From Promethearchaeota archaeon (lineage in GTDB: Archaea > Asgardarchaeota > Lokiarchaeia > Sigyniarchaeales > SOKP01): a DNA stretch of 64,000 bases. Both the position numbers and the translations under genes were made by a program. A model generated the notes under the pieces. It was not told the origin of the DNA. It saw only the letters and a list, made by a program, of their open reading frames with translations, and did no database searches. The stretch spans positions 1 to 64,000 of the forward strand of contig JAHPZI010000002.1 of the NCBI GenBank assembly GCA_019058295.1, read 5' to 3'. The stretch's first letter is position 1. Each line of letters begins with the position of its first letter. Below are positions 12,332 through 59,317 of this stretch, in pieces.

Positions 12332-12359
12332 AGCATTTACTATGAAATAGTAAAATGCT
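12332..12359. repeat. Inverted repeat/hairpin upstream of the permuted 5S locus
   Basis: AGCATTTACTAT-gaa-ATAGTAAAATGCT (12 bp, one bulged A); imperfectly extendable to about 12323-12366. Confidence 0.6.
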
Positions 12360-12376
12360 GCTATATTACGGATACA

Positions 12377-12583
12377 GCCATAAAAGTTGGTGGCAATTAG
12401 GCACGCGCCGGAAGTTAAACTTGATTTCGTTGACAATAGTACTGCAGTTGCGATCTGTGGGAACTGTCAAACTGTAAATTGATTGCGCGCTTCGCGCCGC
12501 AAGCAAAGATTCGTTTACGGTCATGGGAATCTTGGAAAATACCCGGTCCCATCCGAACCCGGAAGCGCTTTAACTTTTGTGGT
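12377..12583 (+). other. Precursor processing stem and BHB-like motif flanking the permuted 5S rRNA
   Basis: GCCATAAAAGTTGG (12377-12390) pairs with TTAACTTTTGTGGT (12570-12583); GCG 12405-12407/CGC 12566-12568; central helix CCGG 12408-12411/CCGG 12559-12562, each followed by AAG. Confidence 0.8.
12414..12564 (+). rRNA. rrf: 5S rRNA, circularly permuted gene: 3' half 12414-12478, 35-nt linker 12479-12513, 5' half 12514-12564
   Basis: 5' half TTTACGGTCAT...ACCCGGTCCCATCCGAACCCGGAA has the conserved loop C CCGAAC; 3' half GTTAAAC...AGTACTG...GGGAAC...ACTGTAAA has the loop E motifs. Helix I TTTACGGT/ACTGTAAA, helix II GGAATC/GATTTC, helix V TTGACA/TGTCAA and helix IV CTGCAG/CTGTGG all pair. 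Confidence 0.88.
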
Positions 12584-12627
12584 AACTATTATAATTATTT
12601 TAATTTAATCCATTACTTTTTTCAATC

Positions 12628-59215: not shown

Positions 59216-59317
59216 GGGAGGGTGGTCTAGCTTGGTATGATTCCTGGTTTGGGACTTCAAACAGAAAGCTTGGAGCAAAACACCAGGAGGCCGGGGGTTC
59301 GAATCCCCCCCCTCCCA
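59216..59317 (+). tRNA. tRNA-Pro(TGG) with a 28-nt canonical 37/38 intron (59254-59281)
   Basis: Acceptor GGGAGGG/CCCTCCC+A, anticodon stem CCTGG/CCAGG, T arm GGGGG-TTCGAAT-CCCCC; BHB helix TTTG/CAAA with bulges GG|A and AC|A; CCA not encoded. Confidence 0.95.

What the first reader, a model, noticed from the sequence alone, without database searches (positions are those of the whole stretch)
12377..12583. Circularly permuted 5S rRNA gene, apparently restored by BHB cleavage and circularisation
Seen in sequence: the 3' half of a 5S rRNA (12414-12478) lies upstream of the 5' half (12514-12564), joined by a 35-nt linker. All 5S helices pair between and within the halves (I TTTACGGT/ACTGTAAA, II GGAATC/GATTTC, IV, V). 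The heptamer CCGGAAG occurs at both ends (12408-12414 and 12559-12565). Because CCGG is self-complementary, the two copies form a 4-bp helix with an AAG bulge 3' on each strand, closed outside by GCG/CGC and a 14-bp stem (12377-12390/12570-12583). Established: archaeal EndA cuts between bulge nucleotides 2 and 3 and RtcB-type ligation circularises the inner piece; permuted tRNA genes and a permuted SRP RNA (Thermoproteus) are known. Inference: cutting A12413|G12414 and A12564|G12565 and ligating gives a 151-nt circle reading ...GAACCCGGAA-GTTAAAC..., exactly the canonical 5S sequence. The inner closing pair is imperfect (T12415/C12558), so the motif is relaxed BHB/BHL. I do not know of a described permuted 5S rRNA gene; standard annotators would report it as missing or fragmented.
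Basis: partly seen in the sequence, partly recalled or inferred. Interest (0 to 1): 0.97.

Follow-up and report, generated by a model that had tools for sequence, protein, structure and literature searches.

The report
Back-to-front 5S rRNA gene, ring-forming
This Asgard (Promethearchaeia) archaeon encodes its only detectable 5S ribosomal RNA with the back half first, between tRNA-splicing-type cut signals. Environmental RNA contains the cut-and-rejoined 120-nt form, so a universal ribosome part seems to be made here as a closed ring.

Summary

**The gene.** Window 12414-12564 holds a 5S rRNA gene in swapped order (3' part, helix-I loop, 5' part). Its flanks form a relaxed bulge-helix-bulge (BHB) motif inside a 14-bp stem.
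- Rfam finds no normal 5S in the genome.
- A profile of canonical 5S gives two swapped partial hits on the native order. On the rejoined sequence it gives one full hit (57 bits).

**Conservation.** A covariance model of the native order finds one full copy in 119 of 135 species genomes of the family. It also hits five other families of the class; the sister family f2 has ordinary 5S genes.
- All helices covary, including the BHB central and outer helices.
- Sequence conservation stops exactly at the predicted cut sites.
- In relatives the break sits elsewhere (loop C), and the same cut rule again restores the canonical sequence.

**RNA.** Metatranscriptome contigs from two studies cover only the inner piece and carry the predicted joint (GAACCCGGAAG-UUAAAC).
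- They lack the 31-nt insert 12478-12508.

**Not shown.** The enzymes are inferred, and so is the idea that the ring itself is the ribosomal form.

**Prior record.** This scan has noted the same thing on other Asgard DNA (94 notes, at least 73 genomes). I found no paper describing it.

The parts
12339..12368 (+). A+T-rich promoter-like region with two TATA-like boxes (CTATGAAATA 12340-12349; CTATATTA 12361-12368). The transcription start was not determined.
   Evidence: Sequence. Relatives carry CTTATGAAATGG / CTTATAAAATGG-type boxes about 22-30 nt before the flank stem. Inference only: no RNA contig covers the flanks.
12377..12390 (+). 5' strand of the flanking processing stem. It pairs with 12570-12583.
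   Evidence: 14 bp and present in the MFE fold. In relatives the stem is kept through quite different sequences, e.g. UUUUCAGUUGUU/AACAACUGAAAA in G004. Flank duplex median is -22.4 kcal/mol against -10.3 for shuffles, median z -3.95.
12391..12404 (+). Small conserved hairpin between the flank stem and the BHB motif (GUAGC-AUUUC-GCUAC in most relatives). Role unknown.
   Evidence: Present in most relatives with covarying stems: GTAGC/GCTAC, TAAGC/GCTTA, GGC/GCC.
12405..12407 (+). Outer BHB helix, 5' strand (GCG). It pairs with 12566-12568.
   Evidence: Compensatory variants: ACG/CGU, GCGU/ACGC, CCCAU/GUGGG, AUCU/AGAU, CACUAAA/UUUAGUG.
12408..12411 (+). Central 4-bp BHB helix, 5' strand (CCGG). 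It pairs with 12559-12562, which is the 3' strand of 5S helix III.
   Evidence: 100% paired in 11 distinct sequences. It covaries CCGG/CCGG to CUGG/CCAG, so the upstream copy is the complement of the downstream strand and not a repeat of it.
12412..12414 (+). 5' bulge AAG. The predicted cut is A12413|G12414, and G12414 becomes 5S position 52.
   Evidence: The base before the cut varies (A/C/U/G). Bases +1 to +7 after it are invariant in 33 distinct sequences. RNA cover starts within the repeated heptamer at 12408.
12414..12477 (+). 3' part of 5S rRNA: loop B and helix II 3' strand, helix V, loop E, helix IV, loop D, helix I 3' strand.
   Evidence: Aligns colinearly with canonical 5S of the sister family. 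HMM positions 47-115. Helices covary. Covered by RNA contigs with 0 mismatches.
12478..12508 (+). 31-nt insert in the helix-I loop. It is a probable relaxed BHB mini-intron and is absent from the RNA.
   Evidence: RNA contigs of X17 (depth 184) and X19 (depth 177) join 12477 to 12509 with 0 mismatches elsewhere, and there is no RNA cover in 12482-12507. Only the window's species and G005 and G007 carry this insert here, and all 3 differences of G005 lie inside it. G001 has a 30-nt insert at the same site with a cleaner BHB. Candidate motif, read by hand: H CUGU/GCAA, bulges AA|A and AG|A.
12509..12513 (+). A plus the UUCG tetraloop that closes helix I after the insert is removed.
   Evidence: The spliced RNA reads CUGUAA-AUUCG-UUUACGG. 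This equals the uninterrupted gene of G014. UUCG or CUUG loops occur in most relatives.
12514..12564 (+). 5' part of 5S rRNA: helix I 5' strand, loop A, helix II 5' strand, helix III and loop C.
   Evidence: RF00001 positions 26-52 at 12540-12565. HMM positions 2-52. Covered by RNA contigs.
12563..12565 (+). 3' bulge AAG. The predicted cut is A12564|G12565.
   Evidence: Bases before the cut are invariant. The base after it varies (G/A/U; conservation 0.58). RNA contigs continue past 12565 with TTAAAC..., not with the genomic CGCTTT.
12566..12568 (+). Outer BHB helix, 3' strand (CGC).
   Evidence: See 12405-12407.
12570..12583 (+). 3' strand of the flanking processing stem.
   Evidence: See 12377-12390.
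12596..12622 (+). T-rich tract (TTATTTTAATTT ... TTTTTT), a likely archaeal transcription stop.
   Evidence: Sequence only. Inference.

Best explanation
The locus is the functional, single-copy 5S rRNA gene of this Promethearchaeia (Asgard) archaeon, encoded in circularly permuted order.

**Proposed pathway**
1. A stand-alone transcript folds so that a 14-bp flank stem and a GCG/CGC helix bring an upstream decoy CCGG onto the 3' strand of helix III. This forms a relaxed BHB motif: 4-bp helix, AAG bulges, no inner helix.
2. The archaeal splicing endonuclease cuts after the second bulge base on each strand (A12413|G12414 and A12564|G12565).
3. It also removes the 31-nt insert 12478-12508 from the helix-I loop.
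4. An RtcB-type ligase joins the ends.
5. The result is a 120-nt covalently closed ring. Helix III re-forms, the joint reads GGAA-GUUAAAC as in any 5S, and helix I is capped by UUCG.
6. The ring is most likely the form built into the ribosome.

**Shown:** the permuted order; its conservation and covariation; the joint and the loss of the insert in environmental RNA; contigs that wrap round 120 nt.

**Inferred:** the enzymes, true circular topology, and that the ring rather than a re-opened form is the mature 5S.

**My odds:** cut-and-join about 0.9; ring as the ribosomal form about 0.6.
For: **Identity as 5S**
- The rejoined sequences of 12 family members align end to end with canonical 5S of sister family f2, and RNAalifold recovers helices I, II, III, IV and V.
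- An HMM of canonical 5S gives one full hit of 57 bits on the rejoined sequence.
- No other 5S candidate exists in the genome.

**Conservation**
- Model R1 (native order) hits 119 of 135 family genomes and 12 of 13 genera, almost always exactly once, at E 1e-17 to 1e-37.
- R1 also gives full-length hits in families f3-f7 and none in f2.
- R1 and RF00001 are mutually exclusive on control loci.

**BHB motif**
- The central helix covaries as a pairing partner: CCGG/CCGG to CUGG/CCAG.
- The outer helix and flank stem show many compensatory changes.
- Conservation boundaries coincide with the predicted cuts.
- In type-B relatives (e.g. G064, G086, G013) the break is in loop C. The same rule gives GGUC-CCAUCC, the canonical loop C.
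- In f5-f7 the cut is shifted by one base, with 5-11-bp covarying outer helices, and still gives the canonical length (read by hand).

**RNA** (three metatranscriptome runs, two studies)
- Cover is confined to 12408-12477 and 12509-12565.
- Loose ends before 12408 read GGTCCCATCCGAAC, which equals 12545-12558. Loose ends after 12565 read TTAAAC.
- Contigs of 145 and 139 nt (depth about 180, 0 mismatches) skip 12478-12508. They repeat their first 25 and 19 nt at the end, so they wrap a 120-nt circle.

**Machinery**
- The genome has two EndA paralogues.
- RtcB is present in 5 of 5 relatives checked.
- The window also holds an intron-bearing tRNA with a canonical BHB.
Against: - Only assembled contigs of RNA runs were available, not reads. 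They cannot show molecule ends, abundance or topology. A mix of precursor and a re-opened linear form would give the same wrap-around contigs.
- The RNA is environmental. A near-identical relative without the insert could be its source, because three species share an identical 120-nt core.
- The BHB lacks the inner helix (U12415/C12558 do not pair).
- The BHB conformer is 6.2 kcal/mol above the single-sequence MFE, because helix III competes for the same CCGG.
- The insert's own BHB is poor: one C-A mismatch in the 4-bp helix and 4 extra bases after the bulge.
- The one DNA control run laid gave no contigs, which the tool says can be a filter artefact. Absence of the joint in DNA therefore rests on the assemblies only.
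- RtcB was not found in the window's own genome, which is 79% complete.
Confidence: 0.8

Rival explanations
1. The ring is only a processing intermediate, as classically proposed for archaeal 16S/23S rRNA. It is re-opened, for example in the helix-I loop, so the ribosome holds a linear 5S with ordinary ends.
For: Contigs cannot tell a ring from a mix of forms. Circular pre-16S/23S intermediates that are re-linearised are the textbook archaeal pathway (PMC8339473, PMC12918454).
Against: - In most genera helix I is closed by a tight UUCG or CUUG tetraloop with no spacer or second processing motif.
- The insert in the window's lineage is removed by joining, which restores that tetraloop rather than opening it.
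- The predicted rings are always 119-122 nt.
- Precedents exist for circular end products: SRP RNA of Thermoproteus (PMC4731332) and 23S rRNA in ribosomes (PMC12918454).
Confidence: 0.2
2. The 31-nt segment 12478-12508 is not spliced. It is a helix-I expansion kept in this species' 5S (a ring of 151 nt). The insert-free RNA contigs come from a close relative whose gene lacks it.
For: The RNA is from environmental samples holding several related 5S variants (tables 5c and 7). The 120-nt core is identical in three species-level genomes, so identity does not pin the source. The insert's BHB is imperfect.
Against: - All three genomes with this exact core carry the insert.
- No RNA contig covers 12482-12507 in any of three runs, although both sides are covered at depth 140-220 in X17 and X19.
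- The observed joint 12477/12509 is the one given by the BHB register that fits the cleaner homologous insert of G001.
- Inserts of 29-31 nt occur at five positions in relatives. For those checked by hand, the BHB rule restores the canonical sequence exactly.
- All 3 substitutions between G005 and the window fall inside the insert.
Confidence: 0.12
3. The transcript is cut at the motif but not joined, so the working 5S is a linear, permuted molecule with a nick between helix III and loop B.
For: Permuted linear 5S molecules exist in brown-algal mitochondria (PMC4267664).
Against: RNA contigs from two studies read straight across the joint in both directions (loose ends at 12408 and 12565). Conservation of the decoy helix and bulges fits an EndA substrate, and the products of that enzyme are normally ligated.
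Confidence: 0.03
4. Assembly artefact or pseudogene: the real 5S gene is ordinary and lies in the unassembled 20% of the genome.
For: The genome is 79% complete in 30 contigs.
Against: - None of 24 family genomes has an RF00001 hit over the cut-off, including ones 98-100% complete. Sister family f2 has them.
- The permuted order is found in 119 of 135 genomes, including single-contig ones (G063, G064).
- Sixteen DNA runs hold the stretch.
- Strong compensatory covariation shows selection.
- The locus is expressed.
Confidence: 0.01

Closest known systems
Permuted, circularised SRP RNA gene of Thermoproteus tenax (Plagens et al. 2015, eLife; PMC4731332)
   Same: An essential structured RNA whose gene has the 3' part before the 5' part. 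The new termini lie in a motif cut by the tRNA splicing endonuclease. Ligation gives a circular, functional end product, and standard annotators miss the gene.
   Different: - Here the RNA is 5S rRNA, a ribosome component.
- The trait spans a whole family and most of a class rather than a few species.
- The breakpoint differs between relatives (after helix III, in loop C, before helix III).
- The permuted genes also carry about 30-nt mini-introns.
- Cleavage and binding were shown biochemically for SRP RNA, not here.
Circularly permuted tRNA genes of Cyanidioschyzon merolae and other algae (Soma et al. 2007; review PMC3978253)
   Same: 3' half upstream of 5' half; BHB motifs at the junction of the flanks; a circular RNA formed by endonuclease and ligase; some genes are both permuted and intron-bearing (PMC3728597).
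   Different: In tRNAs the circle is an intermediate that RNase P and tRNase Z open to give a linear tRNA. Here helix I is closed by a tetraloop and no opening signal is seen. The organisms are eukaryotic algae, not archaea.
Circular and permuted archaeal 23S/16S rRNA (Pyrococcus furiosus PMC7758197; circular 23S in ribosomes PMC12918454)
   Same: BHB motif in a processing stem, excision and ligation of an rRNA into a ring, and in some lineages the ring (or a permuted form) is what sits in the ribosome.
   Different: Those genes are colinear, so circularisation is not needed to restore the sequence order. The literature states that 5S is not processed this way (PMC12918454, Background).
'Permuted' mitochondrial 5S rRNA of brown algae (Valach et al. 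2014; PMC4267664)
   Same: A 5S rRNA whose ends are not at helix I; missed by standard models and found with a dedicated covariance model.
   Different: Only the alpha domain is rearranged: helix I is replaced by a terminal hairpin. The product stays permuted and linear, with no BHB, no ligation and no restoration of canonical connectivity.
Minor circular 5S rRNA isoforms in Halobacterium and Sulfolobus (PMC12558985, citing Danan et al. 2012)
   Same: 5S-derived circular RNAs exist in archaea.
   Different: They come from normal colinear genes, have variable junctions and are interpreted as degradation-linked. Here a single precise joint is required to make a 5S at all.

Membership tests
5S rRNA (Rfam RF00001) | Three-way junction with helices I-V in canonical connectivity | tested here: met
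   Met after rejoining. RNAalifold on 12 rejoined plus 9 canonical sequences recovers helices I, II, III, IV and V. On the native-order alignment helices I, II, IV and V are 95-100% paired with compensatory changes.
5S rRNA (Rfam RF00001) | Universal loop motifs (loop A CAUA/G, loop C CCCAUCCGAAC, loop E AGUA...GAA) | tested here: met
   Present and invariant or nearly so in the alignments.
5S rRNA (Rfam RF00001) | A contiguous gene that reaches the family's gathering score (38 bits) | tested here: not met
   Native order gives only 21.5 and 15.2 bits. This is the expected consequence of the permutation.
5S rRNA (Rfam RF00001) | Full-length profile match of the mature sequence | tested here: met
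   Profile HMM of 15 canonical archaeal 5S: rejoined sequence HMM 3-113 of 118, 57 bits, E 1.5e-19. Native order gives two swapped partial hits.
BHB substrate of the archaeal splicing endonuclease | 4-bp central helix | tested here: met
   12408-12411 with 12559-12562. 100% paired in 11 distinct sequences, with CCGG/CCGG to CUGG/CCAG covariation.
BHB substrate of the archaeal splicing endonuclease | Two 3-nt bulges, one on each strand, each 3' of its helix strand, cut after the second base | tested here: met
   Geometry read from the sequence (AAG 12412-14, AAG 12563-65). The cut positions fit the conservation boundaries and the RNA joint within its 7-nt ambiguity. The same rule restores canonical 5S at a different breakpoint in relatives.
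BHB substrate of the archaeal splicing endonuclease | Outer closing helix | tested here: met
   GCG/CGC plus the 14-bp flank stem; many compensatory variants.
BHB substrate of the archaeal splicing endonuclease | Inner closing helix (strict hBHBh' form) | tested here: not met
   U12415/C12558, A12417/A12556 and so on do not pair. The motif is therefore the relaxed (BHL-like) form. From general knowledge, such motifs are cut by heterotetrameric EndA. The genome has two EndA paralogues, one apparently lacking the catalytic His (my reading of the sequences).
BHB substrate of the archaeal splicing endonuclease | Actual cleavage by EndA at the two bonds | not testable with these tools
   Needs recombinant enzyme or genetics.
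Permuted RNA genes restored by circularisation (SRP RNA of Thermoproteus, permuted tRNAs) | 3' part encoded upstream of 5' part, native ends joined by a short loop | tested here: met
Permuted RNA genes restored by circularisation (SRP RNA of Thermoproteus, permuted tRNAs) | Joint between the gene's last and first bases present in RNA and not in DNA | tested here: met
   The joint is in RNA contigs of 3 runs from 2 studies. It is absent from all 119 assembled loci. The direct DNA-run control failed: 0 contigs laid.
Permuted RNA genes restored by circularisation (SRP RNA of Thermoproteus, permuted tRNAs) | Covalently closed topology of the product | tested here: inconclusive
   Contigs of 139 and 145 nt wrap round a 120-nt unit. 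This fits a ring but also a mix of linear forms. RNase R or raw reads are needed.

The most novel reading that the evidence does not exclude
Ribosomes of this whole family, and of most Promethearchaeia, carry a covalently closed circular 5S rRNA as the mature form, made only by tRNA-splicing enzymes from back-to-front genes. Because the product is a ring, the gene's breakpoint is free to move in evolution: at least three positions were seen, and two of them co-occur within single genera. The genes are also colonised by about 30-nt BHB mini-introns at five or more sites. These would be the first introns described in 5S rRNA genes.
Probability: 0.55. Interest if true: 0.95.

Novelty: new variant of a known kind. 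Interest (0 to 1): 0.9.

Why it matters
- **A universal molecule made differently.** 5S rRNA is taken to be a simple linear transcript in every cell. Here a major lineage of the archaea closest to eukaryotes can make it only by cutting and re-joining, and probably uses it as a ring.
- **An annotation gap explained.** It explains why 5S genes appear to be missing from these genomes, and the native-order covariance model gives a ready detector.
- **Essentiality of the splicing machinery.** The tRNA splicing endonuclease and ligase become essential for ribosome biogenesis in these organisms.
- **A natural experiment.** The moving breakpoints and the 30-nt mini-introns show how BHB elements spread in structured RNAs. 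They also show how 5S tolerates closure of helix I, which matters for ribosome engineering and for ideas on how RNA processing evolved before eukaryotes.

Tried and rejected
- **cmscan of the rejoined sequence.** No tool takes a constructed sequence, so I used a profile HMM in the script box instead.
- **Loose pattern scan.** The pattern GGAAGTTAAAC-N7-CGTT over genome contigs was too loose. It returned mostly unrelated bacteria and canonical Bathyarchaeia 5S. It was useful only for organism names and as controls.
- **DNA control run X4.** 0 contigs were laid, which the tool says can be a filter artefact. It therefore gives no evidence either way.
- **RNA-free parts of the stretch.** The flanks and 12482-12507 have no RNA cover. 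That comes from contigs only. The joint across 12478-12508 is what counts, not the hole.
- **Single-sequence folding.** It does not predict the BHB helix or even 5S helices II and III, so I relied on covariation.
- **Strict BHB for the 31-nt insert.** I looked by hand in all four registers allowed by the RNA joint. None is perfect. The best is CUGU/GCAA with bulges AAA and AGA, supported by the homologous G001 insert.
- **ARAGORN.** It found no tRNA in the window, although Rfam finds an intron-bearing one.
- **Bacterial promoter/terminator scan.** Uninformative for an archaeon.
- **Literature.** Searches for permuted or circular 5S in archaea or Asgard found no description.
- **Rejected reading: duplication scar.** The heptamer repeat could be a scar of a tandem duplication. 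I rejected this because the upstream tetramer covaries as the complement, not as a copy, of the downstream one.
Full report
**1. The observation**

- CCGGAAG occurs at 12408-12414 and at 12559-12565.
- GCG 12405-12407 faces CGC 12566-12568.
- 12377-12390 pairs with 12570-12583 over 14 bp, 4 of them G-U. RNAfold finds this stem.

Rfam finds no 5S rRNA at gathering score in the window or in the whole 3.2-Mb, 79%-complete genome. The best RF00001 matches in the genome are two fragments of this locus in swapped order:
- model positions 26-52 at 12540-12565 (21.5 bits);
- the 3' part at 12386-12480 (15.2 bits).

I could not run cmscan on a constructed sequence.
- native order: two partial hits in swapped order (HMM 47-115 at 12409-12477; HMM 2-52 at 12514-12565);
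- rejoined sequence: one full-length hit (HMM 3-113 of 118, 57 bits, E 1.5e-19).

**2. It is a real, conserved gene**

Contig titles name the lineage as Promethearchaeota/Promethearchaeia, i.e. Asgard archaea.

RF00001 across 40 relatives:
- sister family f2 has ordinary full-length 5S genes (53-69 bits);
- none of 24 genomes of the window's own family f1 reaches the cut-off, and most show only the loop-C hairpin.

Pulling those loci out showed the same swapped order in every case. The inner piece is 119-121 nt, and in most genera helix I is closed by a UUCG or CUUG tetraloop.

Rejoined, the f1 sequences align end to end with the f2 5S genes (53-61% identity for the window's sequence). RNAalifold recovers helices I, II, III, IV and V.

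On the native-order alignment A2, the structure I wrote scored as follows. It comprises the outer helix, the central BHB helix and helices II, V, IV and I.
- 96.4% of cells paired.
- 21 of 33 pairs show changes on both sides.
- 0 of 500 shuffles and none of the slid controls come near.

A covariance model of this native order (R1) gave:
- one full-length match in 119 of 135 species genomes of the family and 12 of 13 genera, at E 1e-17 to 1e-37, including single-contig genomes;
- full-length matches in families f3, f4, f5, f6 and f7 of the class, and none in 13 f2 genomes.

On control loci the two models exclude each other. Bathyarchaeia, Nitrososphaerota and Thermoproteota loci give RF00001 but not R1. 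Promethearchaeota loci give R1 but not RF00001.

The gene stands alone in a 366-nt spacer between a C25 peptidase gene and a small membrane-protein gene.

**3. The flanks behave as a splicing motif**

The geometry matches archaeal pre-tRNA and pre-rRNA: a 4-bp helix with a 3-nt bulge 3' of it on each strand and a closing outer helix. From textbook knowledge of the BHB motif, the cut falls after the second bulge base.

Four independent lines support it.

(a) *Pairing, not repetition.* Where helix III has changed to CUGG/CCAG, the upstream tetramer is CUGG. That is the complement of the downstream CCAG, not a copy of it. This rejects a duplication scar.

(b) *Outer helix and flank stem covary.*
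- Outer-helix variants: GCG/CGC, ACG/CGU, GCGU/ACGC, CCCAU/GUGGG, AUCU/AGAU, CACUAAA/UUUAGUG.
- The flank stem is replaced wholesale in G004 by UUUUCAGUUGUU/AACAACUGAAAA.
- Flank duplexes have a median of -22.4 kcal/mol against -10.3 for shuffles, with a median z of -3.95.
- The canonical f2 genes have no such stems. They run from a TATA box straight to a T tract.

(c) *Conservation stops exactly at the predicted cuts.* In 33 distinct type-A sequences:
- the base before the 5' cut varies (A/C/U/G), while the next seven are invariant;
- the bases before the 3' cut are invariant, while the next one varies (G/A/U).

(d) *The breakpoint is not the same in all relatives, yet the same rule works*.
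- In type B (G064, G086, G013, G022 and others) the upstream flank reads GCG-CUGG-AAC-CAUCCGAAC... and the downstream end reads ...ACCCGG-UCA-CGC.
- The decoy now pairs with the 5' strand of helix III.
- Cutting after the second bulge base gives GGUC-CCAUCC, the canonical loop C.
- In f5-f7 the cut lies one base later (GGAAG|UUAAGC), with outer helices of 5-11 bp. This again gives the canonical length (read by hand).
- Types A and B both occur within genera g2 and g11.

Machinery:
- The genome has two EndA paralogues of about 201 aa.
- One is closest to catalytic subunits of crenarchaeal heterotetramers (3p1z_B, 3ajv_B) and carries the EHSPF histidine.
- The other has no histidine there (my reading).
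- This suggests the broad-specificity two-subunit enzyme, which is an inference.
- RtcB was not found in the window's incomplete genome. It is present in 5 of 5 relatives, including G007, which has the identical 5S locus.

**4. RNA**

Sixteen DNA runs, from 10 of the coded studies, hold at least 72% of the words of the stretch, so the DNA order is real.

I laid three metatranscriptome runs from two studies, as contigs only.
- Cover is confined to 12408-12477 and 12509-12565. The flanks are empty.
- Contigs that start at 12408 are preceded by GGTCCCATCCGAAC, which is the sequence of 12545-12558.
- Contigs that end at 12565 go on with TTAAAC...
- The RNA therefore reads GAACCCGGAAG-UUAAAC across the predicted joint. 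That joint is absent from the window and from every family locus I read out.
- Two high-depth contigs match the window without a single mismatch: X17, 145 nt, depth 184, and X19, 139 nt, depth 177.
- Both jump from 12477 to 12509. Both repeat their first 25 and 19 nt at their end, so they wrap round a unit of 120 nt.

This shows expression, cutting and joining. It fits a ring, but contigs cannot exclude a mixture of forms.

**5. The 'linker'**

- Only the window's species and G005 and G007 carry this insert here. All three differences between G005 and the window lie inside it.
- The RNA lacks it.
- Across 66 loci the predicted rings carry inserts of 29-31 nt at five positions: loop C at about 39 and at 41, helix IV at about 83, loop D at about 90, and the helix-I loop. 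Without them every ring is 119-122 nt.

Where I checked by hand, the BHB rule restores the canonical sequence exactly:
- loop C in G008: UCCG-AA|A ... CGGG-AA|C gives CCGAA-CCCGG;
- loop D in G104: UUGC-GA|G ... GCGA-AA|U gives UUGCGA-UCUG;
- helix-I loop in G001: CUGU-AA|A ... GCAU-AA|G gives CUGUAA-GUUUG-CUUACGG.

The same register in the window (CUGU-AA|A ... GCAA-AG|A) predicts the joint 12477/12509 that the RNA shows. The motif there is imperfect: one C-A mismatch and four extra bases, apparently an AUUG duplication.

I therefore read the insert as a mini-intron (odds about 0.85). The rival is that the RNA comes from an insert-free close relative.

**6. Mechanism and what remains open**

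The best-supported pathway has four steps:
1. a stand-alone transcript;
2. folding of the flank stem and the decoy helix;
3. endonuclease cuts at four bonds;
4. ligation to a 120-nt ring in which helix III re-forms.

Shown: order, conservation, covariation, the joints in RNA. Inferred: the enzymes, the topology, and that the ring is the ribosomal form.

I put the ring as mature form at about 0.6, for these reasons:
- helix I is sealed by a tight tetraloop with no second processing signal;
- the intron at that very place is removed by joining rather than by opening;
- breakpoints move freely, as expected if no particular end matters.

Re-opening to a linear 5S remains the main rival (0.2).

**7. 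Comparison with what is known**

- The closest precedent is the permuted SRP RNA gene of Thermoproteus tenax, whose product is a functional ring made by the splicing endonuclease (PMC4731332).
- Next are the permuted tRNA genes of red algae, where the ring is an intermediate (PMC3978253).
- Archaeal 23S/16S rRNAs are circularised at BHB motifs from colinear genes. A recent paper states that 5S is not processed in this way (PMC12918454).
- 'Permuted' mitochondrial 5S rRNAs (PMC4267664) and minor 5S circRNAs of Halobacterium and Sulfolobus (PMC12558985) are different things.
- I found no paper describing a permuted or obligatorily circular 5S in archaea.

This scan has already noted the same arrangement on other Asgard DNA: 94 notes in at least 73 genomes, in Heimdall, Hod, Odin and Atabeya groups. 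Those are unchecked AI notes. I did not use them as evidence.

What this window adds:
- the family-wide survey;
- the canonical sister family as a contrast;
- the moving breakpoint;
- the 30-nt mini-introns, with RNA support for one of them.

**Verdict**

Interest is high.

Noticed in passing
L077 (G064), L073 (G086), L072 (G013), L017 (G022), L217, L218 and others: A second breakpoint type. The 5S gene is split inside loop C (GGUC|CCAUCC) instead of after helix III. An upstream decoy CUGG/CCGG pairs with the 5' strand of helix III. Both types occur within genera g2 and g11, so the break has moved more than once.
   Followed up: partly
L074/L075 (G001, G008), L206-L211, L050, L053, L203-L205, L212, L216, L219, L220: Inserts of 29-31 nt sit at five positions of the permuted 5S genes: loop C at about 39 and 41, helix IV at about 83, loop D at about 90, and the helix-I loop. 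Some genes carry two. Those checked by hand have BHB motifs whose cuts restore the canonical sequence, so they are probable 5S rRNA mini-introns.
   Followed up: partly
L004-L012 (family f2), e.g. G032:C1:1399892-1400758: The sister family f2 has ordinary colinear 5S genes with a TATA box and a T-tract and no processing stem. One complete genome has three tandem copies about 375 nt apart. Whether this is ancestral or a reversion is open.
   Followed up: partly
L066 (G026, family f3): A third arrangement. The whole helix III/loop C hairpin lies upstream with the 3' part, so the break is before helix III. The flanking motif was not worked out.
   Followed up: no
window 59216-59317 (+): tRNA-Pro(UGG) with an intron of about 30 nt at the canonical 37/38 site and a textbook BHB (UUUG/CAAA helix, bulges GG|A and AC|A). 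Rfam finds it at 52.5 bits; ARAGORN as run here does not. The intron is about the size of the 5S inserts.
   Followed up: partly
G000:C1:121142-121372 (L197 1168-1773 +) and G000:C26:58847-59095 (L198 1426-2031 -): Two splicing-endonuclease paralogues of 201 aa. One is closest to crenarchaeal catalytic subunits and has the catalytic His. The other seems to lack it, which would make a two-subunit enzyme of the kind known to cut relaxed motifs.
   Followed up: partly
window 12391-12404 and the same place in relatives: A small hairpin (consensus GUAGC-AUUUC-GCUAC) is conserved, with covarying stem, between the flank stem and the BHB on the 5' side only. No role is known.
   Followed up: no
L075 922-1026 (G008:C109:5309-5413): A second, weak R1 match (37 bits) lies about 800 nt downstream of the 5S gene of G008. 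It may be a decayed copy.
   Followed up: no
L122, L151 (public contigs JBHLKV010000137.1, JBHLLG010000030.1): Contigs labelled Hodarchaeota and Hermodarchaeota by their submitters carry 5S loci of the same kind as family f1 of Promethearchaeia and coincide with G079 and G078 hits. The labels and the GTDB placement seem to disagree.
   Followed up: no
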